64,000 bases of DNA from Minisyncoccia bacterium (GTDB taxonomy: Bacteria; Patescibacteriota; Minisyncoccia; Phycocordibacterales; UBA918): the NCBI GenBank assembly GCA_041738755.1, contig JBGSPE010000005.1, forward strand, positions 207,872-271,871, given 5' to 3'. Shown here piece by piece: positions 7,620-40,776 of the stretch (positions are counted from its first letter, which is position 1; each line of letters begins with the position of its first letter). The position numbers and the translations under genes are program-made. The notes below the pieces were generated by a model. That model ran no database searches. It saw only the letters and a program-made list of their open reading frames with translations, and was not told the origin of the DNA.

Positions 7620-7650
7620 ATACAGGCACATTACTTCGTTGGCCTACGAA

Positions 7651-7697: not shown

Positions 7698-7753
7698 TCC
7701 GCCTCGTACTGCACTCTGTATTTAGCGCTTCCTAAACACTATTATTTTCAACG

Positions 7754-8053: not shown

Positions 8054-8290
8054 TAATTATACTCGATACTTTTAAAAGTTAATCATTGGTTACCTAAAGA
8101 AAATTAAAAACCTAAACGCCCGGCAGAGCCAAACATTTTTGGTAGTCCTTGTAGTGTACACAGGGTGAACCCTGATGCGATACGAAGAGGGTAATCCCAA
8201 CCATCGATGCAAGTGACTGAAATGCACAACTACAACGTAGAGGTTTTCATCGTGCCTATTTATTATATGCCTCTCCAATTTGTCGCAAAC

Positions 8291-8319
8291 TTTACAGTAC
8301 CTCTTTTTAGATTTATAAT
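8291..8319 (+). promoter_or_regulatory. sigma70-like promoter of grpE-dnaK (TTTACA-17-TATAAT)
   Basis: -35 at 8291-8296 and -10 at 8314-8319, which predicts a TSS at or near the grpE start codon (leaderless). I saw no CIRCE element. Confidence 0.6.
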
Positions 8320-8328
8320 ACTACTTGT

Positions 8329-13431: not shown

Positions 13432-14388
13432 TTGGACATTCTCAATTTTTTCCTCGACTTCATCTCTTCGGGATGGTTCATTGCCATCGTCGTTGCTGGT
13501 GCCATGTTTGCAGCCGGTGTAATTATCGATGAAAAACTCGTAAAAGAGCAAGCTATCGGTACGCTGGTCATAATCTCATCCCTCTTCGGGTTCGCGGTAA
13601 TGGCAGTTTTTGCCGGTATAGCGCACTACACCAATACCAGCCTCTACCTCGACCAGACAAGCCTCAAGTGGGCACTTTTGATTGGGGTTGGTGAGATTGC
13701 ATGGGTGGTACCATACCTCTATGCTCTCAAACGCCGCGGCGCAGTGGTAGCTGGTCCGATGTTCCAGCTCATTCCGGTTGCTGGTGGCGTTCTCGAAGCT
13801 ATATTCTTTGGCGTCATTCCACCTGCGATTCATGTAATTGGATCCATTCTCATCATTGGTGGAGGCTTCGTACTTTCTATCGAAGAAGAAGAGCTGGAAA
13901 ATGGTAGCACTGCTTACGTGTCTGACTGGAAAACAGTTGGTCTCATGGCGGTTTCTGCCATCATCGCATCTGCCATCTATGTCTTCTTCAAGGACACAGC
14001 AGGTGGAGAAGGTGGTTATGTTGCGGTAGGATTCTGGACTGGTCTAGGTATGGTGCTTACCGGCATCGTAATCTGGTTGGTATGGAAGCCATATCGAACT
14101 AACTTCAACGCCTTCTGCAAGAAAGCAAACGGCAAGATGGTTGCTCTGCAACTCCTCAATGAGACAGTGGATGCTGGTGGTGCGTACCTCACGCACTTCG
14201 CCAACATTCTTGGGCCGTCGGTCTTGATTGTAACAGCCTTCAATGCTGTTCAGCCAGTCTTCATCTTAATCTTTGTCGCCATACTCTTATTCTTCGGAAT
14301 TAAGGTGTGGGATATGGAATACAAGTGGAAGATTATCGTCCCATCAATCCTCACGATTGCAGGGGGGACAGTTCTGATTGCTCTCTAA
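13432..14388 (+). CDS. DMT/EamA-like 10-TM transporter
   Basis: 318 aa with two repeated five-TM halves. TTG start with an SD (GGAGG) 5 nt upstream. Confidence 0.55.
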   Translation: MDILNFFLDFISSGWFIAIVVAGAMFAAGVIIDEKLVKEQAIGTLVIISSLFGFAVMAVFAGIAHYTNTSLYLDQTSLKWALLIGVGEIAWVVPYLYALKRRGAVVAGPMFQLIPVAGGVLEAIFFGVIPPAIHVIGSILIIGGGFVLSIEEEELENGSTAYVSDWKTVGLMAVSAIIASAIYVFFKDTAGGEGGYVAVGFWTGLGMVLTGIVIWLVWKPYRTNFNAFCKKANGKMVALQLLNETVDAGGAYLTHFANILGPSVLIVTAFNAVQPVFILIFVAILLFFGIKVWDMEYKWKIIVPSILTIAGGTVLIAL

Positions 14389-14398
14389 ACTCATAAGT

Positions 14399-14436
14399 CC
14401 TTCCTGGGATAACTCGTTATCCCAGGAAGGCATTTT
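14399..14436 (+). terminator. rho-independent terminator (15-bp perfect inverted repeat + U tract)
   Basis: CCTTCCTGGGATAAC..GTTATCCCAGGAAGG followed by CATTTTCAT. Confidence 0.75.
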
Positions 14437-14455: not shown

Positions 14456-15271
14456 TTGCCTATGGCAAACAATCCACCTGACGAAAATTCTCATCAAAGA
14501 CTACAAAAATTCTTCACACCACTTGATTTAGCGGTTGAAGAAATTAAGCGTCGACAATTAGATACGGCTTTATTTAAAAAAGTTGAGGATTTTCTCGATG
14601 GTGATATACCAGAACATTTTGCTCAACCTGACCCAATATTTTATCTTTCTAGACACATTGCCACACCCAATTATGAAGCTCTACGCTTCGTTGAATTAGC
14701 AAAACCATATGGGTTACCAATGGTTATTGGTCAGGACAGCAAAGGTATTTTTGTTTCAAACAATGATCTGAAACGCCCCCTGGGAAAGCTACCTGTTACC
14801 AAAGGGGTATCTAGAAACCTTGACGAAATAGTTGAATATTTTACTATCGTTGACTTCACAGAACACCAAGGAAAACCATTTGCAGAAATTAAAACGAAGT
14901 TCGATAGAGACCTTGTTTCTTATCACAATGAGTTATTCCGGCAAATTTACCCTGTTGAGATGGAAATAGTTGATGAATCTGAATGGATTGATAGAAATCA
15001 CAGGGGAGATATTGTAGCTCAGTACAAAAAGATGCTGTCCTTACTCATTGTGCACGGCATCATGCTTGAATCCTATCCACCGCATGAACATGGCTTTGTA
15101 ACCAATGTACTGGAACCTGCTTATGACGAAGTATCAGAATATTTTGGAGTTAGACCATTAATTTCAGAACACATAGATAGTGACTTAGAAGAAACCCGGG
15201 ACTGGAATGGATACCCAAGTGTCTTGTACCAATTTCTCAAAAACGATACCGAGAAAAAGAAAGGTTCGTAG
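14456..15271 (+). CDS. hypothetical protein (first gene of the low-GC island)
   Basis: 271 aa; no recognisable motifs; GC drops sharply from here onward. Confidence 0.45.
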   Translation: MPMANNPPDENSHQRLQKFFTPLDLAVEEIKRRQLDTALFKKVEDFLDGDIPEHFAQPDPIFYLSRHIATPNYEALRFVELAKPYGLPMVIGQDSKGIFVSNNDLKRPLGKLPVTKGVSRNLDEIVEYFTIVDFTEHQGKPFAEIKTKFDRDLVSYHNELFRQIYPVEMEIVDESEWIDRNHRGDIVAQYKKMLSLLIVHGIMLESYPPHEHGFVTNVLEPAYDEVSEYFGVRPLISEHIDSDLEETRDWNGYPSVLYQFLKNDTEKKKGS

Positions 15272-15321
15272 TTTGTGTATAGAACCAAGATGGTACTTTA
15301 TTAAGTGATACAATTACCGTA

Positions 15322-15639
15322 ATGAAGTTGAAAAACATTCTACTAACCAGTGCAGTTGTGCTGTTTTTGGCAATCAGTATTGGAGCAACATATTATAAAA
15401 TGGTAGTTCTTCAAGATTTTGAGACAACTGGTATCTGGCTAGAATTTGTAGAGGAAGAATCAACCTATGTTTTCTTTGTCTATGAAAACGTCGAGTATGA
15501 ACTTGAGTTAGAAACGACTGATTATAATCTTATATTACTAAGTATTTCAGATGAAGTTGGCATACCAGTAGCTGATTTAGATCCAGACTTTCTTGAATAC
15601 CTTCAAGGTTCTTACGAAGAAGCCAGTTCATCAGAATAA
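15322..15639 (+). CDS. small secreted/anchored acidic protein
   Basis: An N-terminal hydrophobic signal or anchor (LLTSAVVLFLAISIGA) and an acidic C-terminal half. Confidence 0.45.
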   Translation: MKLKNILLTSAVVLFLAISIGATYYKMVVLQDFETTGIWLEFVEEESTYVFFVYENVEYELELETTDYNLILLSISDEVGIPVADLDPDFLEYLQGSYEEASSSE

Positions 15640-15643
15640 ACAT

Positions 15644-16243
15644 ATGAAAAAACCACAAATCTACTCATGGATGAATCCATCGCTAACAATTAAACGAACT
15701 GACCGGTATGGTAGTGCAGATTTGCCGACAATTAAAAACGGAAAAAAAACATATTCCAAGAAAAAAGGTTTAGGTTTTGCGGTATTTGCAAACAAAAAGA
15801 TTAAAAAAGATGAAGTTCTGTTTGTTATGGGTGGTTATGTTTTAACAATCGAAGATGAAAACGAACTATCAGGTATCGTCGCTGATAAACCTATCGAAAT
15901 TTCTGAAAAATTTTCAATAGGGCCACGTAAACCATCCGATATAGAAAAAATGCCTCAACATTATGTTAATCATAGCTGTAACCCTAACGCTGGATTCAAC
16001 GGACAAGTGTTTATGGTGGCTATGAAAAACATAAAAGCTCATGAAGAAATTGTTTATGACTATGCAATGATTATGCACACAAACAGTAAGAGTAATAGTT
16101 TTTTCACATTTGAGTGTTTATGTGAAAGTAAGGATTGTCGTAAAAAAATTGGAGAGAACGATTGGAAAATTAAAGACTTACAAAACAAGTATGACGGTTA
16201 TTTCCAGTACTATTTACAGGAAAAAATTAATAGACTTAAATAA
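15644..16243 (+). CDS. SET-domain protein (putative protein lysine methyltransferase)
   Basis: GLGFAVFANKKIKKDEVLF; the NHSCNPN motif; EEIVYDY; a post-SET CLCESKDCRKK. The likely start is ATG 15644, in frame with the track ORF. Confidence 0.7.
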   Translation: MKKPQIYSWMNPSLTIKRTDRYGSADLPTIKNGKKTYSKKKGLGFAVFANKKIKKDEVLFVMGGYVLTIEDENELSGIVADKPIEISEKFSIGPRKPSDIEKMPQHYVNHSCNPNAGFNGQVFMVAMKNIKAHEEIVYDYAMIMHTNSKSNSFFTFECLCESKDCRKKIGENDWKIKDLQNKYDGYFQYYLQEKINRLK

Positions 16244-16245
16244 TT

Positions 16246-17901
16246 ATGGAAACCTTAACTTGTTTAGATTCTGAAGCTACCTTGTTTGGAATTTTTGACC
16301 CAAGTATCGCACCACTACTTTTATATTATGCCTACGTTCCTATATCTATCATTTCAATATTTTTGGGTATCTTAGTACTTGTAAATAGAAAAAAATTCTC
16401 ATTACCAAACGTAAGTTTCTTCGCTCTTACAATTCTATACAGTTTGTACCTTATAAATGAAATTATTCAATGGATAGCTGTTCCCGCTGGATTAGTGAAT
16501 TTTGGTTGGGAAATGATTGCATTGTACTTTACATCAATATCAATGAGCCTCTTCTACTTTGTCTATACATTTATTGAAGAGAAGGATTTGTCTAGTAAGT
16601 TGAAACTAATCATCTTTGCATTATTTGCTCCGATAATTCTATTTTTACCAACTAGTTTAAATGTTAAGGGCTTTGACCTGGCAATCTGTCAAGCTGAAAT
16701 TGGCAATGGTTACCTATATGTTTATTTTATAATTATTCTCTCAATAGTCGGAATAATTGCCGTCTGTATTAAAAATTACTTGAAGGACAAAAAAGTATCT
16801 ACTATTTTATTGATGCTTGGATCTGTTTCGATGCTTCTTGTGTTGCTATTTGCTGACTTGGTGAGTGAGTACCTAGGAACTTTTGAATTCAACCTTATTG
16901 GTCCAGTTGGTATGCTTCTTTTTATGACAATCATTACGTATATGATTGTTACGTATAAGGCCTTTGATATCAAGGTGGCCGGAGCGCAAGCACTTGTATT
17001 TGCATTAATTATTTTGATTGCCTCACAACTACTCTTCGTGCGCTCAGCGACTAGTCAGATCCTAATTACAATTACGCTTATTATTTCTATCTTAGGCGGT
17101 TATTTCTTAGTAAAAAGTGTTAAGCGTGAAATACAACAACGAGAGCAAATTGAATCGCTAGCCAAAAACCTGGCCAAAGTAAATACGCGACTTAAAGAAC
17201 TCGACAAGCAGAAGTCTGAATTCGTTTCTATTGCCTCACACCAGCTCCGCAGTCCATTAACCGCAATCCGCGGTTACGCTTCGATGGTTATCGAAGGGAG
17301 CTATGGTCAAATTCCAGAGAAAGCCAAGGAATCACTTATGAGAATTGAAGAATCGGCCAAGCTGATGGCAATGTCTGTAGAGGACTACCTCAATGTGTCT
17401 CGAATTGAGTCTGGTAACATGAAGTATGTTTACAGTGACTTTAACCTTAACGAATCAGTCAGCAAAATATGTGACGACCTTCGTCCCGAAGCTATGAAGC
17501 GAAGTCTTATCCTCCTTAACCGTAGCGATATCAAGGGTCGCGGCATTGTTTATGCAGACGTAGGTAAGACACACCAAATCATCCACAACCTCATTAATAA
17601 CTCAATTAAATACACCCAGAAGGGGAGCATTTCAGTTTTTGTCCGTGATGACCTTATCAAGAAGCGTATTTATATCGATATCACTGACACCGGTATTGGC
17701 ATGAGTGAAAAGACCCAACACACTATCTTCCAAAAGTTTGAACGGGCTGAAAACGCTAACAGTGTAAATATTTCTGGTACTGGACTCGGACTCTACGTAG
17801 CTCACAAGATGGCTGAGCAAATGGGCGGTAATATCACCGCGTTCTCTGAAGGTGACGGTAAGGGCTCTCGCTTCACCATCGAATTACCACTAGCGATGTA
17901 A
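16246..17901 (+). CDS. sensor histidine kinase with multi-TM N-terminal domain
   Basis: About 7 TM helices, then HisKA (FVSIASHQLRSPLTAIRGY) and HATPase_c (GTGLGLYVAHKMAEQMGG). No response regulator is adjacent. Confidence 0.8.
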   Translation: METLTCLDSEATLFGIFDPSIAPLLLYYAYVPISIISIFLGILVLVNRKKFSLPNVSFFALTILYSLYLINEIIQWIAVPAGLVNFGWEMIALYFTSISMSLFYFVYTFIEEKDLSSKLKLIIFALFAPIILFLPTSLNVKGFDLAICQAEIGNGYLYVYFIIILSIVGIIAVCIKNYLKDKKVSTILLMLGSVSMLLVLLFADLVSEYLGTFEFNLIGPVGMLLFMTIITYMIVTYKAFDIKVAGAQALVFALIILIASQLLFVRSATSQILITITLIISILGGYFLVKSVKREIQQREQIESLAKNLAKVNTRLKELDKQKSEFVSIASHQLRSPLTAIRGYASMVIEGSYGQIPEKAKESLMRIEESAKLMAMSVEDYLNVSRIESGNMKYVYSDFNLNESVSKICDDLRPEAMKRSLILLNRSDIKGRGIVYADVGKTHQIIHNLINNSIKYTQKGSISVFVRDDLIKKRIYIDITDTGIGMSEKTQHTIFQKFERAENANSVNISGTGLGLYVAHKMAEQMGGNITAFSEGDGKGSRFTIELPLAM

Positions 17902-17926
17902 GTATAATTTCAAATAAATATTTTTA

Positions 17927-18502
17927 ATGTTCAATCTAAACGAAAAAATTGTTTTATTTGACACAGAATATACTGCTTGGGAGGGTAGTCGAGAACGTGG
18001 CTGGAGTAAGTCGAATGAGTATAAGGAAATTGTACAAATTGGTGGGATTATTCTAGAAACGCAGAACTTCACAGAAGTTTCTTGTTTTAATGTGTATGTT
18101 AAGCCGGTTCTTAATCCAATTCTGTCTGACTATTTTATAAATCTTACGGCCATTACTCAGGAGCTTGTTCAGAGTAGAGGGATTGATTTAATGTCAGCTT
18201 ATACTCGATTTGTTGATTGGAGTGCTGGAATAGACTCGTACTCCTTCGGACATGACGAAAAAGTAATTATCGAAAATTTTGGTTTACTCAATTTAAGTGC
18301 AAATTTTGAAACTCAGAGATTTTTCAACGCTAGAAATTTGTTTGAGGAAAATAATATCGATACCTCAAATTATAATAGTGGTAATATAATTGAGTACTTT
18401 GGAAAACAAGCTACGTTACGGGCACATGATGCTCTCAATGATAGCCGTATCATTGCAGATGCTCTAAGAGAAATGGTCTTAAATTCCAATAAGTTTAGGT
18501 AA
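17927..18502 (+). CDS. DEDDh 3'-5' exonuclease (DnaQ-like)
   Basis: Exo I LFDTEYT, with H and D in Exo III (HDALNDS). Confidence 0.65.
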   Translation: MFNLNEKIVLFDTEYTAWEGSRERGWSKSNEYKEIVQIGGIILETQNFTEVSCFNVYVKPVLNPILSDYFINLTAITQELVQSRGIDLMSAYTRFVDWSAGIDSYSFGHDEKVIIENFGLLNLSANFETQRFFNARNLFEENNIDTSNYNSGNIIEYFGKQATLRAHDALNDSRIIADALREMVLNSNKFR

Positions 18503-18545
18503 TTTGTGTTAAAATAGAAACCTAGATTTAAATCTATTAAATAAC

Positions 18546-19412
18546 ATGCAATTCGGGCTGATCGGCGGGGAGGATATAGAAAAGTACAGTATTGCCGACA
18601 GAATCTGGTCTATTATCTTATCTCAACATGATACCATTTCATATTTTTCATACTACCCAACTGTCAAAAAGAGTGACGTCTGTAGATTGCTTGAAAAAGT
18701 GCGCAGCTCTGAGATTGAGGGATTTAACGTTGCTCTTCCATGGAAGTCAGCAGTTGCAGAATATTGTGATTTCAAGTCCCCGGTAGTTGAAATGACTGGT
18801 TTTGCAAATGTTGTTTACTCGGAAAGTGGTAAATTGATTGCCGATAATACTGATGGGGTGGGATTTATTGCAGGACTAAAGAAAATTCCTAAAAGCGCTT
18901 TAATTTATGGAGCTGGCGGAGCAGGAGTTGTACTTGCCTATGAACTTTCAAATCTCGGCTCAAGTGTCACAATTGTTGACGTAGATAATGAAAAAATAAT
19001 CTACTTCAATGAAAAGTGTGCAAACTGGCAAAATGCTGATCTTGTTATCGCAAGAGACTCAGATTCAATTGAATTGACTTCGTTTGAAATGGTAGTTAAT
19101 GCAACCCCGTTAGGTAAGAAAAACCATGTATCTAGTGAAAGCTCGGTATCGTATAATAATCAGTCACCGATTCCTTCAGGTCATATAAGTGCTTTTAAGA
19201 AAGGGACTTTATTTGCCGAAATGAATTACTACCCTTTAAAAACTAAATTCATTGATGATGCAGAATCTCATGGAATGGAAATTCAGTTTGGAATAGTAAT
19301 GCTATTTCATCAAGCTGCTAAAACTTACGAGTTATATTCAGGTAAAAAGACTGCGGCTCCAATAAATTTTAATAAACTTTATTTAGACATTTTTAGTTTA
19401 AATAAAGACTAA
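18546..19412 (+). CDS. shikimate/quinate dehydrogenase (AroE) family protein
   Basis: GFNVALPWKSAV and NTDGVGF with a Rossmann GAGGAG match the AroE family pattern. Confidence 0.55.
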   Translation: MQFGLIGGEDIEKYSIADRIWSIILSQHDTISYFSYYPTVKKSDVCRLLEKVRSSEIEGFNVALPWKSAVAEYCDFKSPVVEMTGFANVVYSESGKLIADNTDGVGFIAGLKKIPKSALIYGAGGAGVVLAYELSNLGSSVTIVDVDNEKIIYFNEKCANWQNADLVIARDSDSIELTSFEMVVNATPLGKKNHVSSESSVSYNNQSPIPSGHISAFKKGTLFAEMNYYPLKTKFIDDAESHGMEIQFGIVMLFHQAAKTYELYSGKKTAAPINFNKLYLDIFSLNKD

Positions 19413-19572
19413 GTTTGGTATTGAAAGACAAATAAATCAATCAGAGAATCTACAAGATACAGAAAGGGAATACAGACTCAAATATAAAGGTTCTAAAGAT
19501 TGGTTCTTTTGTCCTGAGTCAATCATCAGTGAACAAACCAACGACCTAGAAGGACAGCTTAGTCATATTGAA

Positions 19573-20541
19573 ATGCCTGCATTTGGGGTTAATGTATTCA
19601 CTGACTCAGACAGGCTTTTTGAACAGATTAATCAGTTCAATGGTTTTTATCAGTCCGAACAATCAGTGGTGGATGGTAAAAAACTTTTTTACATCACAGA
19701 CAAATCAAATGTACCACCACTGCCAAACCCATTGGGTGGTGTTGGTTTAGTAGAGATGTCCTCAGAACCGGCAGACGTACTTTGTGACCCCTTATCAGGT
19801 TCTTATGTAATTAATTGTTGGGACAGGTTTACTTCGATGGAAAGCTTAGTGCTCGGTATACGGAGTTTTGATAATTTGCGTAAGGGTAAATTAGGTATGC
19901 ACGCTGCTCTTATAGAGAAAGATGGCCAGGGGTATATATTGATAGGGAAACCAAAGACAGGCAAAACAACGATCTCGATGTCCCTGGCTGCTCAAGGGTT
20001 TAAACTAATCAGTGACGATTGGGTAGAGGTTGAGAAGAGTGACAGAGAATTTATGGCCTCTGGAACTAATCCTTCTGTTTCCTTAGATCAGCAAACGTTA
20101 TCCATGCTTCAGTCTCAGTATGAGCAATATCACGATGTAGAGTCAATGGGTTTTTCATCGTACGGTAAGCAAATCATGCCAATAAGTAATATAAATAATG
20201 TTTGGAGCCCAAAACAACAAATACCTGTTCGGAAAGTCTTTATTTTAGATAATAACAGTACTGACTCAGAGCCGGTAAATAGTGAGTATTTTTCAGACTT
20301 ACTAAAAATCACTGATCCTCATACTCCGTTTATGAATACTCCAGAAGGTTCAGGTGTGCGGACAGTAAGTGGTATTTCAGATGAGATCAGGTATGGAATA
20401 CAACATATTACTGATTCACAAAACCAAAGACAATACTTGGCTGAAGAATTTGTAAAAAGTGGTTCACATAGTGTTCAAAAATTTAGAAATAAGGACTACA
20501 CGCTAGAAGAAGCTATAGCACATATAAGAAATCAAATATGA
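19573..20541 (+). CDS. HprK C-terminal-like P-loop kinase domain protein
   Basis: GMHAALIEKDGQGYILIGKPKTGKTTISMSLAAQGFKLISDDWVEV aligns with HPr kinase ([23 protein letters not shown]...LVADDRVEI). The in-frame upstream extension has no start codon. Confidence 0.55.
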   Translation: MPAFGVNVFTDSDRLFEQINQFNGFYQSEQSVVDGKKLFYITDKSNVPPLPNPLGGVGLVEMSSEPADVLCDPLSGSYVINCWDRFTSMESLVLGIRSFDNLRKGKLGMHAALIEKDGQGYILIGKPKTGKTTISMSLAAQGFKLISDDWVEVEKSDREFMASGTNPSVSLDQQTLSMLQSQYEQYHDVESMGFSSYGKQIMPISNINNVWSPKQQIPVRKVFILDNNSTDSEPVNSEYFSDLLKITDPHTPFMNTPEGSGVRTVSGISDEIRYGIQHITDSQNQRQYLAEEFVKSGSHSVQKFRNKDYTLEEAIAHIRNQI

Positions 20542-21461
20542 AAATATTAATTACTGGCTCATCTGGTTTAATTGGTGGATTTATTTATTCGCATTTAAAC
20601 TCCAACCATTCACTTCTCGGTATTGATATTATTAATTCGGAGACTACTGATAAATTAGTTGATATTACAGATAAAGATTGCCTAAAGAATATTCTAGATG
20701 AATTTGAGCCAGATATGGTGATTCATGTTGCTGCTCAGAAAGACTTAATTCAGTGTGAAGAAAACAAGGCTGAAACATGGTGCTCTAATGTTAATCCATT
20801 GAGCATAATAACTGACTATCTCTCACAAAAAACCGGTAAATTAATATATATATCATCAGATATGGTATTTGATGGTACTAAAGGTAATTATACGGAAGAA
20901 GACCCTACGTGCCCAATCAATTGGTATGGTGCAACTAAGGTAGCTGGTGAACTTATACCGGTTATACGAATGGCGGAGAACTCGATTTCAATACTACGAA
21001 CAGCGCAAGTCTTCGGTCCGGTTACTGAAGCTTTAATTCACTATGTAAACGTAAAAATTGACTGCGATACAATGACTAATCAAAGTGCTTTGCCCTTATT
21101 TATTAAAATGAGACTTTCGAGGGGTTTGCCGGTAGTATTGCCGAATAATGTCACTTCATCGCCTACACCTGTAACGTTGATTGCTGATGTTGTGAATAAA
21201 ATAATTGAAAATGGAGTAGGCACAGGTCTCCTGCATGTTGCTGGGACAGAGTCTTACAGTAGATTTGAGCTTGGTCGACAGATTGCTGAACTATTAGAAC
21301 TCCCGAAAGACCTTATTGTTCACGGTGTAGATGCCACTACACATCTCAGGCCACATGACTTGTCTATGAATGTTAATAAGTTGGAGAAATTATTTAATAT
21401 CAAAAAAACAGAGTACGATATTTTAAAATACATTAAACAACAAATTTATTATGCACAATAA
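20538..21461 (+). CDS. NAD(P)-dependent epimerase/dehydratase or reductase (SDR, RmlD-like)
   Basis: ILITGSSGLIGG and YGATK (YxxxK). Its start overlaps the upstream stop (ATGA). Confidence 0.7.
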   Translation: MKILITGSSGLIGGFIYSHLNSNHSLLGIDIINSETTDKLVDITDKDCLKNILDEFEPDMVIHVAAQKDLIQCEENKAETWCSNVNPLSIITDYLSQKTGKLIYISSDMVFDGTKGNYTEEDPTCPINWYGATKVAGELIPVIRMAENSISILRTAQVFGPVTEALIHYVNVKIDCDTMTNQSALPLFIKMRLSRGLPVVLPNNVTSSPTPVTLIADVVNKIIENGVGTGLLHVAGTESYSRFELGRQIAELLELPKDLIVHGVDATTHLRPHDLSMNVNKLEKLFNIKKTEYDILKYIKQQIYYAQ

Positions 21462-22158
21462 GTATTTTGAACAATTGAACGCACTCTTCTTGTATCTTGA
21501 TGAAGTTTTACCTAAAAAAATTACAGCCACTTTTATCCATGGATCATTTGCATCTCGTACTGAAACCTCAGCAATTTATCAAGAACAGATGTTCTACTTT
21601 GACAATGGAACTTTTTGGTTTTCAGTCTTGCATTTACAAGATATACCTCCTGACGTCGATATAATAACTGTAACAGACTACCCTGAAGAGGTTTTGGATG
21701 TGGTGCAAGAAAGTGCAAAGAAATATCTTGATGAGACATTTTTTCTAACCCTCAACATCATAACTTCAAGCGAATATGAAAGAATTGTATCTTCCAACGA
21801 TGCTTTAGCGCCAAAAAGGTTACTTGTAAAAAAGATGCTAAATGTTCTAAAGGGCGAAGATTACATAAATAAACTGAAATCTACAGCAATTAAAAACTAC
21901 AATGATTTAGACGATACTATTCAAACTGAGTTTGATAAGAAGAAACTACTCCTTAATGAACTGGCTTCAAAAAGTGTAAGTCATCATGTGCTTACTAGAG
22001 AGTACTACACTCAGCATTATCCAAATCTTTTAGATGAAATGGATGGCGTGCGAGTCGGTGGCTTTAACGTTGATCGTGTAAAGTTAGTCTATCCACAGTC
22101 AATGAATCTAAAGTGTAGGGTGGATATTAAAGATTATTCAGTAAAGTATCTAGAATAA
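21451..22158 (+). CDS. putative nucleotidyltransferase-fold protein
   Basis: IHGSFAS ... DVDII resembles the hG[GS]...DhD motif of pol-beta-like NTases, with atypical spacing. Low confidence. Overlaps the upstream gene by 11 nt. Confidence 0.35.
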   Translation: MHNKYFEQLNALFLYLDEVLPKKITATFIHGSFASRTETSAIYQEQMFYFDNGTFWFSVLHLQDIPPDVDIITVTDYPEEVLDVVQESAKKYLDETFFLTLNIITSSEYERIVSSNDALAPKRLLVKKMLNVLKGEDYINKLKSTAIKNYNDLDDTIQTEFDKKKLLLNELASKSVSHHVLTREYYTQHYPNLLDEMDGVRVGGFNVDRVKLVYPQSMNLKCRVDIKDYSVKYLE

Positions 22159-22161
22159 GTT

Positions 22162-23340
22162 ATGCGTATAGCTGTTATTTGTAGACCTGATGTTCCGGTT
22201 CCTCCATACGAAGGGTATGGAGGTCTTCAGCGTAATATATTCGACTTCATAGAAGAATTAGGTAAACGTAATATTGAAGTTGCATTGTTTGCTTCTCTAG
22301 ATTCTAATGTCTCAAAATTAAAAAACGTCACCCTTTACGGCTCACTAAAGTCGGCATTATGGTCAGATCTCGTAGTAAACAAAGATTTTAAGTCAAAAAC
22401 TAAAGAACAAATTGCAATTCAAGCTGAGGCTAATAAAAAGCTGGAGGCCGAGTTTGTCGACTATATTGTTAATGAACTTGCTAATATTAGAGCAGATATT
22501 ATTTTTGTTGCGTACGATAATTTAGATCTACTTTCGAGGTTACAAGGTGGTATGTACAAAAATAAAATTGTTTGGTCGCTGAGAGACAACTTAAACGTAG
22601 AAAAGATCAGCTTTATAAAATCACATCCAGAAATTTTCATGACAGGTATGGCTGATCATATAGAAATTGAACTTCACTCAATTGATAATGTACATACTAT
22701 AATTTGGGGTATTAACCCTAATCTTTATGAATTTTCTCCATACTGTCTGACTAAGACTGATGAAGTACCGAGTCTTCAAATACTTAAGAGTATGCAAGCT
22801 AGGGGTCAAGATTATCTAGTAATGGTTTCAGGTATTGGTCAACACAAGGGTCAATTAACTGCTATAAAAATCGCAAAAGAAAATAACCTGGCATTAATTT
22901 TGGCGGGCACCCCGCAGGATCATCTGACTCTCAAAAAAACGGATTATTTTAAAAACGAGATTGAACCTTTGCTGACAAATGATATTATTCATTTTGGGAA
23001 TGCGAATGAGGTTCAAAAGACTGAATTATTGCGCTATGCAAAAGCTACTTTGGTGCCGTCAGGTTTTGAGTTTAAAGAGTTCAAAGAGCCTTTTGGTAGA
23101 GTAGTGGCTGAGTCCTTTGCTTGTGGGACTCCTGTAATTGCATATAGACACGGCTCACTTCAATTCATTGTGGAGGATAAAAAAGTTGGTTTTTTATTTG
23201 ATACATTCGATGATGCTGTGTATGCAACTCAAAAGATAGATTCAATTAATCGTTGGGAAGTTAGAAAATACTTAGAAAATACACTATCTATTAAGCGGGT
23301 AGTAGATGAGTATATAGTTTTGTTTAATAATATAATTTAA
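22162..23340 (+). CDS. glycosyltransferase family 4 (GT-B)
   Basis: EPFGRVVAESFACGTPVIA, the GT4 E-x7-E region. Confidence 0.7.
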   Translation: MRIAVICRPDVPVPPYEGYGGLQRNIFDFIEELGKRNIEVALFASLDSNVSKLKNVTLYGSLKSALWSDLVVNKDFKSKTKEQIAIQAEANKKLEAEFVDYIVNELANIRADIIFVAYDNLDLLSRLQGGMYKNKIVWSLRDNLNVEKISFIKSHPEIFMTGMADHIEIELHSIDNVHTIIWGINPNLYEFSPYCLTKTDEVPSLQILKSMQARGQDYLVMVSGIGQHKGQLTAIKIAKENNLALILAGTPQDHLTLKKTDYFKNEIEPLLTNDIIHFGNANEVQKTELLRYAKATLVPSGFEFKEFKEPFGRVVAESFACGTPVIAYRHGSLQFIVEDKKVGFLFDTFDDAVYATQKIDSINRWEVRKYLENTLSIKRVVDEYIVLFNNII

Positions 23341-23345
23341 TAGTT

Positions 23346-23954
23346 ATGGATTTAGAAATATTTGAACAAGTTAGAGCTGATTTAAAAGAAATTTTTCCAC
23401 CTGAAACTGATGAGCCGAGATTTCGATACGTTAAACAGACTTGGATATTTCCAAATCATTTTGATATAACTGTCCGCTTCGCAAAACAATTAGCAGAAAA
23501 ATATAACGCTGATGTTCAAGTGTGCATGCTTGCAGCTTTGCTACATGATGCAGGTCTGGCATACAAACGAGATCGAGCAGATTCTATTGGCCATGAGGAA
23601 CGTAGTGTTGAGTATGTATATGAGTTCCTACCAAAATATGGTTATGATGCTGACACAGTAAAAGCTGTCGCTGATTCTGTTATTGCTACTGAACCGAAGG
23701 CCGAAGTCACTACTATTGAAGCAAAGGTCGTACGTACTGCTGATGCTCTGGCACACATACAATCGGTACATTACCTTGCAAAAGCTGTTTTTAGCCCAAC
23801 CTGGGACGACGCCATTGCATTTGTTGAACGTAAAGTACATGCTGATTACGATAAAATATGTTTTGAGGATGAACGACTAAAGATTGCGCCAATTTACAAT
23901 TATTTTGTCTCAATTATTGAACAATACAAAGGAAATAATATAATTAATTTATAA
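23346..23954 (+). CDS. HD-domain phosphohydrolase
   Basis: H...LLHDAG...D; last gene of the tight five-gene operon. Confidence 0.6.
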   Translation: MDLEIFEQVRADLKEIFPPETDEPRFRYVKQTWIFPNHFDITVRFAKQLAEKYNADVQVCMLAALLHDAGLAYKRDRADSIGHEERSVEYVYEFLPKYGYDADTVKAVADSVIATEPKAEVTTIEAKVVRTADALAHIQSVHYLAKAVFSPTWDDAIAFVERKVHADYDKICFEDERLKIAPIYNYFVSIIEQYKGNNIINL

Positions 23955-24000
23955 GAAAAATCCTATTCTGTTTTAACTGTAATTGTAATTTTTATACAGT

Positions 24001-25041
24001 TTGGGTATGAAAACTCTTTCAAAAATTAGAGTAGGAGATACGGTAGCAATGGTCTCACCGTCTTTTGCGGCACCTGGAGTGTGGCCACACATGTATGAAC
24101 TTGGACTGCAGCGACTGAGGATAGTCTTTGAACTTGAGCCAGTATCGTATCCTGCTACAGCAAAAGTTGGTGCGAGTGGAGAAGAGCGAGCGGCCGATTT
24201 AATTGCTGCATTTTCTGACCCTGAGGTAAAGGCTGTTATTGCTTCACTTGGTGGTGATGACCAGGTGACTTATATAAAGTACTTACCATCAGAGCCGTTT
24301 ATCAATAATCCCAAACCATTCTTTGGATTTAGTGATAATTCTCATTTTTGTAACTTTCTTTTTCTTAATAACATTCCGTCCTTTTACGGAGCGTCACTCT
24401 TTACCCAGTTTGCTATGCAAGGAGCGATGGATGACTATACGGTTGAATATATTAAGCACGCATTGTTTGAAACAGGAGAAAAAGAACTTATAGCCTCTTC
24501 GATATATAACGACCAAGGACTCCCCTGGGATAATCTTGAAACTATGAAGGACCAAAGAGAACATTGGGAGAACCCTGGATTTGTGTGGTCACAAGCAGCA
24601 AAAAATGCAGAAGGTAGACTCTGGGGAGGTTGTATCGAATCAGTAGATGAGATGTTAAGGCACGATATTACCATCCCAACTCTTGAGCAATTTGAAAACA
24701 TTGTTCTCATGCTTGAGAGCTCAGAGGAACTACCGGCCGCAGAGTATGTTTTTCGTGTATTGAGAGGATTGGGCGAGCGAGGAATACTTGAACGAATACA
24801 AGGTGTGTTGGTGGGAAGAGCGAAAGCGTGGGAGTTTGATAAACCAAACTCTTTTGAAGAAAAAGAAACTTATCGAGAAAACCAAATCAAGGCTTTCGAA
24901 AAGGCTCTCTCACTATACAACCCAAATATTCCACTTGTACAAAACCTCAACTTTGGTCACACTGACCCACAAATTCCTATGCCATACGGAAACAAAGTCA
25001 GGATTGATTGTGAACATAAACGAATTTTTGCTACTTTCTAA
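24001..25041 (+). CDS. LD-carboxypeptidase (peptidase S66, LdcA/MccF-like)
   Basis: VAMVSPSFA; catalytic GFSDNS; FGHTDP. GC returns to the core level here. Confidence 0.75.
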   Translation: MGMKTLSKIRVGDTVAMVSPSFAAPGVWPHMYELGLQRLRIVFELEPVSYPATAKVGASGEERAADLIAAFSDPEVKAVIASLGGDDQVTYIKYLPSEPFINNPKPFFGFSDNSHFCNFLFLNNIPSFYGASLFTQFAMQGAMDDYTVEYIKHALFETGEKELIASSIYNDQGLPWDNLETMKDQREHWENPGFVWSQAAKNAEGRLWGGCIESVDEMLRHDITIPTLEQFENIVLMLESSEELPAAEYVFRVLRGLGERGILERIQGVLVGRAKAWEFDKPNSFEEKETYRENQIKAFEKALSLYNPNIPLVQNLNFGHTDPQIPMPYGNKVRIDCEHKRIFATF

Positions 25042-25079
25042 AATATGAATTTAAGGTCTTTTTTGCTACTATAGAAGCT

Positions 25080-26027
25080 ATGTCAGATACTAAAAAACGT
25101 TTACTTACCGGACTACAGTCTTCGGGGACACTACACATTGGGAATTACTTTGGGGCTCTGAAGCCATTCCTCGATATCTACGAACAGTATGATAGCTACC
25201 TCATGGTAGCTGATTACCATGCCCTTACCTCAATCCGAGACCCGGAAGTGATGCGAGATAATATCATCAACGTGGTCAAAGACTATTTGGCTGTCGGGGT
25301 TGACCCTGAGAAAGCAATTATCTTCCGTCAGTCTGATAATCAGGACCATATGGAGCTTGGCTGGGTATTTAACTGTCTCGTGACAGTGCCATTTTTGATG
25401 CAGGCTCATTCGTATAAAGATAAGGTCGCCAAAGGACTTGAACCAAACGCCGGACTCTTTACCTACCCAATGCTGCAAGCAGCTGATATTGCTCTCTACA
25501 ACATCGATGTAGTGCCGGTCGGGGAAGATCAACGACAACATATTGAATACGCGAGAGAAGCGGTGGGTAAGTTTAATCGAGCGTTTGGAGAGACGCTGAA
25601 AGAGCCGGAAGAAATTATTCTCGATAGTGTCGGTGTCGTACCTGGAACCGACGGACAAAAGATGAGTAAGAGCTATGGTAATACCATTCCACTGTTTGGT
25701 ACCAAAGAAGAAATTGAGAAAGCTGTTATGAGTATCGTGACCGACTCGTCAGGCGAACGACCAGAACATGTGTACGCTATTCACCGTCTCTTGAAGCCGG
25801 CCGAAGAACTTGACCCAATCTACGAAACCCACAAAGGTCGCTACGGTGACTTGAAGAAACTACTCGCGGCTGATTTAGAAACCTTTATCGCTCCGATGCG
25901 AGAAAAGCGAGCCAGTCTTACCTTTGATGATGTAGCAGCCGTGCTCACCAATGGAAACATGAAAGCGAAAGAAGTCACAAGCCAAACCCTCGACCGAGTC
26001 CGTAAAGCTATTGGAATAAGTTTATAA
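25080..26027 (+). CDS. trpS: tryptophanyl-tRNA synthetase
   Basis: HIGH-type TGLQSSGTLHIGNY and KMSKS. Confidence 0.93.
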   Translation: MSDTKKRLLTGLQSSGTLHIGNYFGALKPFLDIYEQYDSYLMVADYHALTSIRDPEVMRDNIINVVKDYLAVGVDPEKAIIFRQSDNQDHMELGWVFNCLVTVPFLMQAHSYKDKVAKGLEPNAGLFTYPMLQAADIALYNIDVVPVGEDQRQHIEYAREAVGKFNRAFGETLKEPEEIILDSVGVVPGTDGQKMSKSYGNTIPLFGTKEEIEKAVMSIVTDSSGERPEHVYAIHRLLKPAEELDPIYETHKGRYGDLKKLLAADLETFIAPMREKRASLTFDDVAAVLTNGNMKAKEVTSQTLDRVRKAIGISL

Positions 26028-40754: not shown

Positions 40755-40776
40755 TACGTGATGGAAAGAAATAATA

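What the first reader, a model, noticed from the sequence alone, without database searches (positions are those of the whole stretch)
14456..23954. 9.5-kb low-GC island inserted between core genes
GC drops abruptly from about 47% to about 32% at 14.45 kb and recovers at 24.0 kb, just before the LD-carboxypeptidase and trpS. The island begins right after a strong terminator. It encodes an atypical mix: hypothetical proteins, a SET-domain protein, an orphan histidine kinase, a DEDDh exonuclease, an AroE-like dehydrogenase, and a tight five-gene kinase/epimerase/NTase/GT/HD operon. The composition and gene content suggest a horizontally acquired or accessory surface-modification or host-interaction locus.
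Basis: partly seen in the sequence, partly recalled or inferred. Interest (0 to 1): 0.55.

Follow-up and report, generated by a model that had tools for sequence, protein, structure and literature searches.

The report
Low-GC island hides mobile sugar cassette
The low-GC stretch is real but has two parts: an old, lineage-shared low-GC block (a hypothetical protein, a SET protein and a histidine kinase) and a 6-kb, seven-gene sugar-handling cassette that moved into this candidate-phyla-radiation (CPR) bacterium from a lower-GC relative, so it is an ordinary accessory island carrying a rare gene cluster of unknown product.

Summary
Window 14456-23954 has 36.1% GC against 44.8% elsewhere. Gene GC3 is 0.30 against 0.43, and tetranucleotide deviation is z = 4-9. 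A -24.5 kcal/mol hairpin sits at the left edge. The organism is a Paceibacteria (CPR) bacterium.

The island is not one insertion. The closest relative found (L098; TrpS 90% identical) has dnaJ-...-EamA-ORF1-small protein-histidine kinase-trpS in the same order, and that block is low-GC there too. So the left 3.4 kb is resident. L098 lacks the SET gene and lacks window 17906-25058.

Within that gap, 17939-23955 is a discrete cassette: exonuclease, AroE-like reductase, HprK-like P-loop kinase, RmlD-like reductase, Pol-beta-fold nucleotidyltransferase, GT4 glycosyltransferase and HD hydrolase. It is 88-90% identical in DNA to cassettes on unrelated 35%-GC contigs. One of those has an adjacent large serine recombinase and another has a remnant of one.

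The same gene set recurs at 25-45% protein identity, sometimes in a different order or with NUDIX replacing HD. All seven genes are under purifying selection.

The most likely function is synthesis of a nucleotide-activated sugar or cyclitol and its transfer to a soluble acceptor. This is inferred, not shown.

The parts
11080..12153 (+). dnaJ, the conserved left anchor of the variable region
   Evidence: Pfam DnaJ, DnaJ_C and CXXCXGXG. grpE-dnaK-dnaJ lies upstream of trpS in many Paceibacteria loci. 89% aa identity to L098.
13432..14388 (+). EamA-family transporter, resident but part of the variable region
   Evidence: Pfam EamA. Collinear in L098 at 70% aa. Near trpS in only 2 of 63 loci with at least 2.5 kb of upstream sequence.
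14399..14430 (+). Intrinsic-terminator-like hairpin marking the left GC edge
   Evidence: 14-bp stem and T-rich tail. -24.5 kcal/mol, z = -6.25. Absent in L098, where EamA and ORF1 are 4 bp apart.
14456..15271 (+). ORF1, a conserved CPR hypothetical protein (probable ATG start at 14462); resident
   Evidence: No Pfam, NCBIfam or PDB match. 98 homologous clusters at 37-96% identity, one named Candidatus Nomurabacteria. Same position in L098 at 75% aa, GC 35.7% there.
15322..15639 (+). Small acidic protein with a hydrophobic N-terminus; resident
   Evidence: ORF. 104-aa homologue in the same place in L098 at 55% aa.
15593..16243 (+). SET-domain methyltransferase (gene call 15644-16243); absent from L098, present upstream of the kinase in L014 and L005
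   Evidence: Pfam SET 49.2 bits, cut-off 22.4. NHSCNPN, YDY and C-x-C-x4-C motifs are readable. Window 15582-16235 has no counterpart in L098. 30% identity to the L014 SET protein, E = 2e-14.
16246..17901 (+). 7TM sensor histidine kinase with no nearby response regulator; ancestral at this spot
   Evidence: HisKA, HATPase_c and a weak HisKA_7TM match. 8 hydrophobic segments. 75% aa to the 551-aa L098 kinase, which lies 39 bp from trpS. Adjacent to trpS in 15 of 63 loci. No response regulator found.
17939..23955 (+). Acquired 6.0-kb cassette, defined as the DNA homology block
   Evidence: blastn: 88.5% to L085 719-6738, 90.4% to L090 4306-10320, 71% to L086 973-6980. No counterpart in L098 or in 80 trpS loci. 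GC 35.8%.
17927..18502 (+). DEDDh 3'-5' exonuclease, first cassette gene in this sub-lineage only
   Evidence: Pfam RNase_T. Weak KapD match. ERI1/CRN-4 among PDB matches. DTE and H-x4-D motifs. Absent from the L082, L092 and L097 versions.
18546..19412 (+). AroE-family NAD(P) reductase, probably not acting on shikimate
   Evidence: TIGR00507 134 bits against a cut-off of 200. Best PDB matches are AroE 3don and 5-ketofructose reductase 7cok; the NVTxPxK motif reads NVALPWK and NTD is kept.
19420..20541 (+). HprK-like P-loop kinase; the ancestral ATG is ATT here, and the next ATG is at 19573
   Evidence: Hpr_kinase_C 32 bits. HprK_rel_A 42 bits and ScmC 41 bits, both far below their cut-offs. 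The profile matches only the HprK C-domain core. Homologues are 360-376 aa. ATT against ATG is shown. The 51 upstream codons are open, with dN/dS 0.14-0.20.
20538..21461 (+). RmlD-like SDR reductase
   Evidence: RmlD_sub_bind 145 bits. TIGR01214 125 bits against a cut-off of 224. PDB: RmlD and MAT2B.
21451..22158 (+). Pol-beta-fold nucleotidyltransferase of a rare, undescribed family
   Evidence: 35 representative clusters among 1.84 billion. HGS, DVD and TxN motifs. AF2 pLDDT 96.7. Foldseek best match is ANT(4') 1kny, E = 9e-4, TM 0.36, followed by AadA, MNT and Tam41. Pfam Polbeta matched by 11 of 29 members.
22162..23340 (+). GT4 (GT-B) glycosyltransferase
   Evidence: Glycos_transf_1 72 bits. 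Best PDB match is 7fg9/8x3q at E = 6e-25, identified as glucosylsucrose synthase in PMC9909042. Next are tetrahydrobiopterin glucosyltransferase, BshA and MshA.
23346..23954 (+). HD-domain phosphohydrolase, last cassette gene
   Evidence: Pfam HD 44 bits. HDIG match. Replaced by NUDIX in distant clusters.
24001..25041 (+). LD-carboxypeptidase; absent from L098, composition nearer the host
   Evidence: Peptidase_S66 and S66C. GC 41.7%, GC3 0.337. A 56% homologue lies next to the kinase in L010.
25080..26027 (+). trpS, the conserved right anchor
   Evidence: tRNA-synt_1b. 90% aa to L098. Used to fetch 80 related loci.

Best explanation
The window comes from a Paceibacteria (candidate phyla radiation) bacterium. 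Between dnaJ and trpS this lineage has a variable region. The 9.5-kb low-GC stretch inside it has two parts with different histories.

Part A is 14456-17901: ORF1, a small protein, SET and a 7TM histidine kinase. It is resident. It is collinear with the closest relative and is low-GC there as well. Only the SET gene differs between close relatives.

Part B is 17927-23954: a discrete seven-gene cassette that arrived by horizontal transfer from a lineage of about 35% GC and landed between the kinase and trpS. It probably came on an element moved by a large serine recombinase. This copy has since lost its own upstream control region, its terminator and the recombinase.

Inferred function: the cassette is a soluble pathway that tailors a sugar or cyclitol (AroE-like and RmlD-like reductases), phosphorylates it (HprK-like kinase), trims a phosphate (HD), activates it with a nucleotide or builds on the phosphate (Pol-beta-fold nucleotidyltransferase), and transfers a sugar to an acceptor (GT4). 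This is the same kinase-phosphatase-nucleotidyltransferase-epimerase-transferase logic as the ADP-heptose and phage UDP-arabinose pathways, built from different protein families. The two-part structure and the transfer are shown by the evidence. The chemistry is inferred.
For: Taxon and synteny: the trpS scan gives Paceibacteria/Parcubacteria genomes with a grpE-dnaK-dnaJ-[gap]-trpS-asnS backbone. The dnaJ-trpS gap is 29 bp to 8.9 kb in relatives and 12.9 kb here.

Empty site: L098 (TrpS 90%, DnaK 94% aa) is collinear through EamA-ORF1-small protein-kinase-trpS. It has 15 nt where the window has 17906-25058 and 51 nt where the window has the SET gene. Its ORF1, small protein and kinase have 35.6-37.6% GC against 45.7-48.3% for dnaK, dnaJ and trpS.

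Transfer: the cassette is 88.5-90.4% identical in DNA to L085 and L090, whose flanks are unrelated and 34-35% GC. None of the 80 trpS loci has a cassette gene. L085 has an intact large serine recombinase right after the cassette, and L086 keeps a 30-aa N-terminal remnant with the YxRxST motif.

Functional unit: the order AroE-kinase-RmlD-NTase-GT4-HD is kept in four lineages down to 33-58% aa identity. At about 27% identity the same families recur in a different order, with NUDIX in place of HD. In L087 and L089 the NTase-kinase pair sits with SIS, FAD or GFO/IDH/MocA oxidoreductases, NUDIX and glycosyltransferases. dN/dS is 0.08-0.23 for all seven genes.

Chemistry: catalytic motifs are intact. 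The nucleotidyltransferase fold is confident. The L092 version sits among further GT2 and GT4 genes and a UDP-glucose/GDP-mannose dehydrogenase. GT4's nearest solved relatives are glycoside synthases acting on small molecules. Precedents for the logic are the phage arabinosyl pathway (PMC13326640) and the PsmK/PsmN pair (PMC6993621).
Against: The window has no integrase, tRNA or flanking direct repeats, so the insertion mechanism here is unseen.

Only one close relative gives the empty site, so loss in L098 rather than gain here is not formally excluded. The hosts of L085, L086 and L090 are unidentified, so the direction of transfer rests on GC alone. dS of 0.14-0.50 shows the event is not recent.

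No enzyme reaches the curated cut-off of any characterised family, and no substrate is known. Pol-beta-fold nucleotidyltransferases of the ANT type usually modify hydroxyl groups rather than make NDP-sugars. The cassette has no dehydratase to feed an RmlD-type reductase. The role of the exonuclease is unexplained. Why part A is low-GC in two relatives is also unexplained: it could be older acquisition or weaker selection.
Confidence: 0.72

Rival explanations
1. The whole 9.5 kb (14456-23954) is a single horizontally acquired island.
For: The compositional deviation is continuous from 14.0 to 24.5 kb, with sharp edges and a terminator at the left edge.
Against: ORF1, the small protein and the kinase are collinear and equally low-GC in L098, which lacks the cassette. 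The kinase is adjacent to trpS in 7 of the 8 closest relatives. DNA homology to the mobile cassette starts only at 17939. The tetranucleotide signal dips over the kinase.
Confidence: 0.06
2. Nothing was acquired. The cassette was in the common ancestor at this variable site and was lost in L098 and all other sampled relatives. Low GC simply reflects weakly selected accessory DNA.
For: Part A shows that low GC can be an inherited property of this region. The region loses and gains genes often: hicAB, SET and the LD-carboxypeptidase all differ between relatives. dS to the nearest cassettes is 0.14-0.5, so the cassette is not a fresh arrival.
Against: 0 of 80 trpS loci carry any cassette gene. 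The nearest cassette copies lie in unrelated flanks with 34-35% GC, and two are next to a serine recombinase or its remnant. L082 carries the cassette at a different site, between the rpmE-prfA block and rpsB-tsf. The window copy lacks the conserved upstream and downstream sequences shared by the other copies.
Confidence: 0.08
3. The kinase and nucleotidyltransferase work as PsmK and PsmN do in lasso-peptide tailoring. The kinase phosphorylates a Ser/Thr hydroxyl of a peptide or protein, the nucleotidyltransferase-fold enzyme and GT4 add sugars on or next to that phosphate, and the reductases supply the sugar. The cassette would then be a protein phospho-glycosylation system.
For: An HprK-family kinase paired with an aminoglycoside-NTase-like protein is the PsmK/PsmN combination, shown to add phosphate and then one or two hexoses (PMC6993621). 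The kinase's best NCBIfam match is HprK-related kinase A. The nucleotidyltransferase's best structural matches are aminoglycoside nucleotidyltransferases. All proteins are soluble.
Against: None of the cassettes has a precursor peptide, lasso cyclase, PqqD-like protein or transporter. The kinase scores 42 bits against a cut-off of 200. No family member matches Pfam NTP_transf_5. Two sugar or cyclitol reductases and a phosphohydrolase are constant partners, which suits metabolite chemistry better.
Confidence: 0.12
4. The cassette is an anti-phage defence system or a nucleic-acid glycosylation system, with the exonuclease and HD protein acting on DNA or RNA and GT4 modifying bases.
For: In L085 it lies beside a Gabija-like OLD-ATPase plus UvrD-helicase pair and a recombinase, and in L090 beside a large SF1 helicase. 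Phage DNA-glycosylating enzymes resemble the same solved GT4 structures (PMC13326640). The exonuclease and HD protein match generic CRISPR-associated DEDDh and HD profiles.
Against: No PADLOC system model matches. Two scans of viral contigs found no cassette gene. The exonuclease is missing from half of the cassette lineages. The cassette has no base-modifying enzyme such as a thymidylate-synthase homologue.
Confidence: 0.06
5. The island is an assembly or binning chimera that joins DNA from a lower-GC organism into this contig.
For: The source is a metagenome assembly, and the composition changes abruptly.
Against: A second assembly (Logan, SRR28170465, 20.5-kb contig) has the same junctions on both sides of the cassette. 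Part A is collinear with L098. The cassette is bounded precisely by an intact 551-aa kinase and by the LD-carboxypeptidase and trpS.
Confidence: 0.02

Closest known systems
Nucleotide-sugar pathways of the 'kinase, phosphatase, nucleotidyltransferase, epimerase, transferase' type: ADP-heptose (GmhA, HldE, GmhB, HldD; from general knowledge) and phage UDP-arabinose for arabinosyl-hydroxycytosine DNA (PMC13326640)
   Same: The same set of steps is encoded side by side. Distant versions of the cluster also carry a SIS phosphosugar isomerase (L087). GT-B transferases follow in the operon.
   Different: None of the enzymes is homologous. The kinase is HprK-like rather than a ribokinase- or APH-type kinase. 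The nucleotidyltransferase has a Pol-beta fold rather than the RmlA/MurU fold. The phosphatase is HD or NUDIX rather than HAD. There are two extra reductases. Substrate and acceptor are unknown.
PsmK/PsmN tailoring pair of the lasso peptide pseudomycoidin (PMC6993621)
   Same: An HprK-family kinase is encoded with an aminoglycoside-nucleotidyltransferase-like protein, and together they add phosphate and then hexose.
   Different: There is no precursor peptide, cyclase, B1/B2 proteins or transporter. The sequences are far below family cut-offs. The 235-aa family does not match NTP_transf_5.
Cargo cassettes moved by large serine recombinases, such as staphylococcal SCC elements (from general knowledge)
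   Same: A discrete block of cargo genes is found in different chromosomal contexts with an adjacent large serine recombinase (L085) or its remnant (L086).
   Different: The window copy has no recombinase, no attachment repeats and no conserved end sequences. The element's full extent was not defined.
GT4 glycoside synthases acting on small molecules: glucosylsucrose synthase TeGSS (7fg9), tetrahydrobiopterin glucosyltransferase, BshA, MshA
   Same: These are the best solved-structure matches to the cassette GT4: E = 6e-25 for 7fg9/8x3q, with the others weaker. They are soluble and use soluble acceptors, some followed by a phosphatase step.
   Different: The match covers only the C-terminal donor-binding half (residues 216-391). 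The acceptor-binding half is unmatched. All NCBIfam scores are far below cut-off.
Shikimate dehydrogenase AroE and dTDP-4-dehydrorhamnose reductase RmlD
   Same: The folds, cofactor motifs and catalytic residues are kept: K and D in the AroE-like protein, YxxxK in the RmlD-like protein.
   Different: Both score below the equivalog cut-offs (134 against 200; 125 against 224). The AroE-like protein has A in place of the T of NVTxPxK, and its N-terminal substrate loop does not align. No other shikimate or rhamnose pathway gene is in the cassette.

Membership tests
Horizontally acquired genomic island | Composition deviates from the host genome | tested here: met
   36.1% against 44.8% GC; GC3 0.30 against 0.43 (p = 3e-6); tetranucleotide z = 4-9. 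Only 64 kb of host sequence was available for comparison.
Horizontally acquired genomic island | Absent from the same site in close relatives | tested here: inconclusive
   Met for 17906-25058 and for the SET gene: absent in L098, and 0 of 80 trpS loci have cassette genes. Not met for ORF1, the small protein and the kinase, which are collinear in L098.
Horizontally acquired genomic island | Near-identical copy in unrelated genomic contexts | tested here: met
   88.5-90.4% DNA identity over 6.0 kb to L085 and L090, which have different flanks. L082 carries the cassette at a different chromosomal site.
Horizontally acquired genomic island | Integrase or recombinase, tRNA target, flanking direct repeats | tested here: not met
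   None in the window. A serine recombinase is adjacent to the cassette only in L085, with a remnant in L086.
HPr kinase/phosphorylase and HprK-related kinase A | Score at or above the curated family cut-off | tested here: not met
   TIGR00679 31 bits against 240; TIGR04352 42.5 against 200; Pfam Hpr_kinase_C 32.3 against 33.3. Only the P-loop core (about 60 residues) aligns to solved HprK.
Pol-beta-fold nucleotidyltransferase superfamily | hG[GS] and DxD motifs on the conserved fold | tested here: met
   HGS and DVD are invariant or nearly so in 29 sequences. The model has pLDDT 96.7. Foldseek gives probability 1.0 to ANT(4'), AadA and MNT, but TM is only 0.26-0.38. Pfam Polbeta is matched by 11 of 29 members, best E = 9.6e-5.
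Shikimate dehydrogenase (AroE equivalog) | Curated cut-off and shikimate-binding residues | tested here: not met
   134.3 bits against 200.2. NVTxPxK reads NVALPWK, and the N-terminal substrate loop is outside every alignment.
dTDP-rhamnose pathway (RmlD) | Curated cut-off, and rmlA, rmlB, rmlC present nearby | tested here: not met
   124.8 bits against 224. No RmlA, RmlB or RmlC domain in the island or in any cassette copy.
Two-component system | Histidine kinase with a cognate response regulator | tested here: inconclusive
   The kinase domains are complete. No receiver domain was found in the window or the trpS loci by tblastn with PhoB and CheY. The rest of the genome was not seen.
SET-domain methyltransferase | SET domain above cut-off with catalytic motifs | tested here: met
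   49.2 bits against 22.4. NHSCNPN, YDY and a post-SET-like C-x-C-x4-C are readable. The substrate is unknown.
Known anti-phage defence systems (PADLOC) | Match to the system-specific protein models | tested here: not met
   Only generic DEDDh and HD matches.
Lasso-peptide / RiPP tailoring cluster | Precursor peptide, macrolactam synthetase, PqqD-like protein | tested here: not met
   No such domains in the island or in the other cassette copies. Small precursor ORFs were not searched for exhaustively.

The most novel reading that the evidence does not exclude
The recurrent pairing of an HprK-like P-loop kinase with a 235-aa Pol-beta-fold nucleotidyltransferase defines an undescribed pathway in CPR bacteria. 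The pair always appears with sugar or cyclitol redox enzymes, a phosphohydrolase and glycosyltransferases. The pathway would make either a new nucleotide-activated sugar or cyclitol, or a phosphodiester-linked glycoside attached to a metabolite, protein or nucleic acid. It uses enzyme families not previously tied to sugar activation, and it spreads between these reduced-genome symbionts as a recombinase-borne cassette.
Probability: 0.25. Interest if true: 0.7.

Novelty: new variant of a known kind. Interest (0 to 1): 0.42.

Why it matters
As a genomic island this is ordinary. Two things are useful.

First, a GC dip can merge an inherited low-GC block with a true acquisition. Calling islands from composition alone would misplace the boundary here by 3.4 kb.

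Second, the acquired part is a rare gene cluster that has been conserved over a long time. The kinase has 5 clusters in a word-indexed search of 5.8 billion, and the nucleotidyltransferase has 35 representatives in 1.84 billion. Two of its core enzymes have no family assignment.

CPR bacteria have very small biosynthetic repertoires. A self-contained, mobile, selectively maintained seven-gene pathway is therefore likely to matter for their physiology or for their association with hosts, and it is a tractable target for heterologous expression.

Tried and rejected
- tRNA scan of the whole window: none found.
- Direct and inverted repeats around the island: only short, chance-level pairs, none at both junctions.
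- Rfam: nothing at gathering threshold in the window. Nothing credible in the conserved region upstream of the cassette in L090.
- Sequence searches of ORF1 and of the 235-aa protein (alone and as a profile) against solved structures: nothing usable.
The kinase alignment was used instead and gave 4 metagenome loci.
- Two viral-contig scans, with the kinase profile and the HD protein: no relatives.
- PADLOC: no defence system.
- AlphaFold model of the kinase from 5 sequences had pLDDT 56.6 and was not used for fold search.
- Literature searches for this gene combination found no description of the cluster.
- The 23-nt repeat TTTTTGCTACT... at 25025 and 25060 was considered as a target-site duplication and rejected: both copies lie on the right side of the insertion, and the second is the native trpS upstream sequence also present in L098.
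- Look-up of cluster members gave no organism names.

Full report
**1. The observation**

The GC dip is real and is the strongest compositional feature of the window. Positions 14456-23954 have 36.1% GC against 44.8% for the remaining 54.5 kb, and the lowest 9.5-kb window in the sequence starts at 14500.

Third-codon-position GC of the ten island genes averages 0.300, against 0.428 (sd 0.050) for 46 other ORFs of at least 150 aa (Mann-Whitney p = 3e-6). Strand-symmetric tetranucleotide distance from the rest of the window is z = 4.3-9.3 in every 2-kb window from 14.0 to 24.5 kb. The maximum elsewhere is 2.7. There is a relative trough (z about 4.3-5.3) over the 3' half of the histidine kinase.

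The left edge follows a 14-bp-stem hairpin with a T-rich tail at 14399-14430. Its energy is -24.5 kcal/mol, z = -6.25 against shuffles.

An independent assembly of run SRR28170465 (L001) has the same gene order and 99.5-100% identical proteins from ORF1 to asnS. A chimera is therefore unlikely.

**2. Gene content**

- SET domain protein (49 bits).
- A sensor kinase with HisKA, HATPase_c and a weak HisKA_7TM match, and 8 hydrophobic segments.
- An RNase_T/DEDDh exonuclease.
- A shikimate-dehydrogenase-family protein.
- A kinase matching only the P-loop core of the HPr kinase C-domain.
- An RmlD-like SDR.
- A GT4 glycosyltransferase.
- An HD hydrolase.

Every cassette enzyme scores far below the curated cut-off of the characterised family it resembles: AroE 134 against 200, RmlD 125 against 224, HprK-related kinase A 42 against 200. 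The catalytic motifs are intact, read directly from the translations:
- GKPKTGKT and SDDW in the kinase.
- YGATK in the SDR.
- NVALPWK and NTD in the AroE-like protein.
- DTE and H-x4-D in the exonuclease.
- E-x7-E in GT4.
- HD in the hydrolase.
- NHSCNPN, YDY and C-x-C-x4-C in SET.

The 235-aa protein called an 'NTase' has no Pfam, NCBIfam or PDB sequence match. An exhaustive HMMER search found only 35 representative clusters among 1.84 billion proteins. Their alignment has nearly invariant HGS, D-x-D and T-x-N motifs. The AlphaFold model is very confident (pLDDT 96.7). Its best PDB neighbours are kanamycin nucleotidyltransferase ANT(4'), AadA, MNT antitoxins and Tam41, with probability 1.0 but TM only 0.26-0.38. 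Eleven of the 29 family members weakly match Pfam Polbeta.

No response regulator was found in the 64 kb by tblastn with PhoB and CheY. The window has no tRNA and no Rfam family at gathering threshold.

**3. Organism and the site**

A trpS scan of one genome per species returned Paceibacteria/Parcubacteria MAGs, with 80% identity at best. The backbone grpE-dnaK-dnaJ-[gap]-trpS-asnS-... is widely conserved. The dnaJ-trpS gap varies:
- 29-57 bp in L019, L027, L030 and L031.
- 0.3-0.7 kb in L012, L024 and L054.
- 2-9 kb in many others.
- 12.9 kb in the window.

The island therefore lies in a lineage-wide variable region. Its conserved anchors are dnaJ and trpS, not EamA and the LD-carboxypeptidase.

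A homologue of the 7TM kinase lies directly upstream of trpS in 15 of 63 loci with enough upstream sequence, including 7 of the 8 closest relatives. A SET gene precedes it in L014 and L005. ORF1 belongs to a widespread CPR hypothetical family: 98 clusters at 37-96% identity.

**4. The empty site**

A 75% homologue of ORF1 led to L098 (JGI Ga0400254_001624, 11.8 kb). This is the closest relative found. Amino-acid identities are TrpS 90%, DnaK 94%, DnaJ 89%, kinase 75%, ORF1 75% and EamA 70%.

Its gene order is grpE-dnaK-dnaJ-hicB-hicA-161 aa-132 aa-EamA-ORF1-104 aa-kinase (551 aa)-39 bp-trpS. The blastn blocks show two stretches present only in the window:
- 15582-16235, the SET gene.
- 17906-25058, running from the exonuclease through HD plus the LD-carboxypeptidase. 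L098 has 15 nt at this position.

In L098 the shared genes ORF1, the small protein and the kinase are also low-GC: 35.6-37.6%, GC3 0.29-0.38. Its dnaK, dnaJ and trpS have 45.7-48.3%. The same holds in L014, where SET is 38.3% and the kinase 40.5% against 46.3% for the flanks.

So the left 3.4 kb of the 'island' is an inherited low-GC block.

**5. The acquired cassette**

The kinase has only five 90%-identity clusters in the word-indexed search of 5.8 billion proteins. Their contigs all carry the same neighbours.

DNA homology to the window runs from 17939 (12 nt into the exonuclease ORF) to 23955 (the HD stop codon):
- 88.5% to L085.
- 90.4% to L090.
- 71% to L086.

The flanks of these loci are unrelated to the window and to each other. 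They have 34-35% GC, matching the cassette's 35.8-36.5%.

L085, L090 and L086 share about 200 nt upstream and about 90 nt downstream that the window lacks. The upstream stretch includes an invariant 27-nt block, TAAAAAGTGACAAAAGTGACACATTTT. The downstream stretch has a terminator hairpin.

Immediately after that hairpin, L085 encodes an intact large serine recombinase (Resolvase, Recombinase and Zn-ribbon domains). L086 retains a 30-aa N-terminal remnant, MLEVLQSDYKYVLYARKSTE....

None of the 80 trpS loci contains any cassette gene. Two viral-contig scans found none.

Against L090 and L085, all seven genes have dN/dS of 0.08-0.23, with dS of 0.14-0.50. The cassette is functional, and the transfer is not recent.

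The LD-carboxypeptidase (GC 41.7%) is not part of the mobile unit. A 56% homologue sits next to the kinase in L010. It is therefore either an older resident lost in L098 or a separate gain.

**6. The cassette is an old functional unit**

The order AroE-like, kinase, RmlD-like, nucleotidyltransferase, GT4, HD is kept in four lineages:
- The window group.
- L086.
- L082/L083/L084: 44-61% aa identity, GC 49%, an extra GT2, and a different chromosomal site between the rpmE-prfA block and rpsB-tsf.
- L092/L093/L094: 33-58% aa identity, with extra GT2 genes, a UDP-glucose/GDP-mannose dehydrogenase and a further GT4 nearby.

At about 27-37% identity the same families recur:
- L095: kinase, RmlD-like, nucleotidyltransferase, GT4.
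- L097: a different order (nucleotidyltransferase, kinase, RmlD-like, AroE-like, NUDIX, GT2).

In L087 (Dojkabacteria) and L089 the nucleotidyltransferase-kinase pair persists; the kinase homology is E about 1e-11. There it sits with a SIS isomerase and an FAD oxidase, or with GFO/IDH/MocA and GMC oxidoreductases, plus NUDIX and glycosyltransferases.

The invariant core is therefore:
- a sugar or cyclitol redox enzyme,
- an HprK-like kinase,
- a Pol-beta nucleotidyltransferase,
- a phosphohydrolase (HD or NUDIX),
- usually one or more glycosyltransferases.

The exonuclease is confined to the window group and L086.

**7. Mechanism (inferred)**

The gene set reproduces the logic of nucleotide-sugar pathways in which:
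- a sugar phosphate is phosphorylated at a second position,
- trimmed by a phosphatase,
- activated by a nucleotidyltransferase,
- tailored by an SDR,
- and handed to a glycosyltransferase.

Known examples are ADP-heptose (general knowledge) and the phage UDP-arabinose route for arabinosyl-hydroxycytosine (PMC13326640). Here the steps would be carried out by non-homologous families.

A second precedent is PsmK/PsmN. There an HprK-family kinase phosphorylates a serine, and an aminoglycoside-nucleotidyltransferase-like protein is needed to add one or two hexoses on the phosphate (PMC6993621).

Three results favour a soluble acceptor over assembly of a membrane-linked polysaccharide:
- All seven proteins lack hydrophobic segments.
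- No cassette copy has a priming transferase, flippase or exporter.
- GT4's best solved relatives are glucosylsucrose synthase (7fg9/8x3q, E = 6e-25; PMC9909042), tetrahydrobiopterin glucosyltransferase, BshA and MshA.

The AroE-like protein is about as close to 5-ketofructose reductase as to AroE, and it lacks the threonine of the shikimate-binding NVTxPxK motif. This fits a ketosugar or cyclitol substrate.

My best estimate is about 0.5 that the product is a nucleotide-activated sugar or cyclitol that is then transferred to a small-molecule acceptor. I give about 0.12 to peptide or protein phospho-glycosylation and about 0.06 to a nucleic-acid or defence role. PADLOC found no system.

**8. 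Comparison with what is known, and verdict**

As a class this is a familiar thing: an accessory gene cassette inserted in a variable region. The window copy is stripped of its mobility gene and end sequences.

It fails the membership tests for AroE, RmlD, HPr kinase, HprK-related kinase A, lasso-peptide clusters and known defence systems. It passes for the Pol-beta nucleotidyltransferase superfamily, and for a horizontally acquired island only over 17939-23955.

Literature searches found no description of this gene combination.

The finding is partly right. The interpretation needs its boundary moved from 14456 to about 17906-17939, and the operon enlarged from five genes to six or seven.

Interest is moderate. 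The island itself is ordinary, but the cassette is a rare, conserved, mobile pathway with two unassigned enzyme families in organisms that have minimal metabolism.

Noticed in passing
window 19420-19572: The cassette kinase's start codon is ATG in L085 and L086 but ATT in the window. The 51 codons up to the next ATG (19573) stay open and are under purifying selection (dN/dS 0.14-0.20). The protein therefore either starts at a rare ATT or has very recently lost its N-terminus.
   Followed up: partly
window 15593-17901; L014 7399-9812; L005: A SET-domain gene directly upstream of a 7TM histidine kinase, itself directly upstream of trpS, recurs in several Paceibacteria. No response regulator is nearby. 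This could be an unconventional signalling pair.
   Followed up: partly
L085 500-715, L090 4083-4297, L086 770-970: About 200 nt upstream of the cassette is conserved, with an invariant 27-nt block TAAAAAGTGACAAAAGTGACACATTTT and further GTGACA/TGTCAC half-sites. It looks like an operator or a recombination site. It is absent from the window copy and has no Rfam match.
   Followed up: partly
L085 6797-12120: Next to the cassette lie a large serine recombinase and, on the opposite strand, a UvrD-like helicase plus an OLD-family TOPRIM ATPase, which is a Gabija-like pair. This suggests the cassette travels in a defence or mobile island.
   Followed up: no
L098 4992-5439: The closest relative carries a hicB-hicA toxin-antitoxin pair right after dnaJ. 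The window has none, which is further turnover in the same variable region.
   Followed up: no
window 13432-14388 vs L098 6635-7591: The orthologous EamA genes (70% aa identity) differ strongly in composition: 48.5% GC and GC3 0.53 in the window, against 38.2% and 0.27 in L098. This is unexplained.
   Followed up: no
window 25025-25047 and 25060-25082: A 23-nt imperfect direct repeat (TTTTTGCTACT...) spans the end of the LD-carboxypeptidase gene and the trpS upstream region. The second copy matches the native trpS upstream sequence in L098.
   Followed up: partly
window 21451-23340 vs L090 7816-9708: Synonymous divergence to L090 is much lower for the nucleotidyltransferase and GT4 genes (dS 0.14-0.17) than for the other cassette genes (0.30-0.50). 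This hints at recombination within the cassette between lineages.
   Followed up: no
window 26371-26856: A T6SS-immunity-like Tdi1 C-terminal domain protein with low GC3 (0.327) lies two genes downstream of trpS, which is unusual in a CPR genome.
   Followed up: no
L092 1117-1937; L093 3239-3487: In the most divergent cassette lineage the kinase gene is split into two ORFs (L092) or reduced to an 83-aa match (L093), while the other genes are intact. This is possible decay of the kinase step, or frameshift errors in the assemblies.
   Followed up: no
window 7501-8500 and 40501-41500: Two minor GC dips (38.6-38.8% in 1-kb windows) lie outside the island and were not examined.
   Followed up: no
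window 1-64000: No tRNA gene and no Rfam family at gathering threshold in the whole 64 kb.
   Followed up: yes
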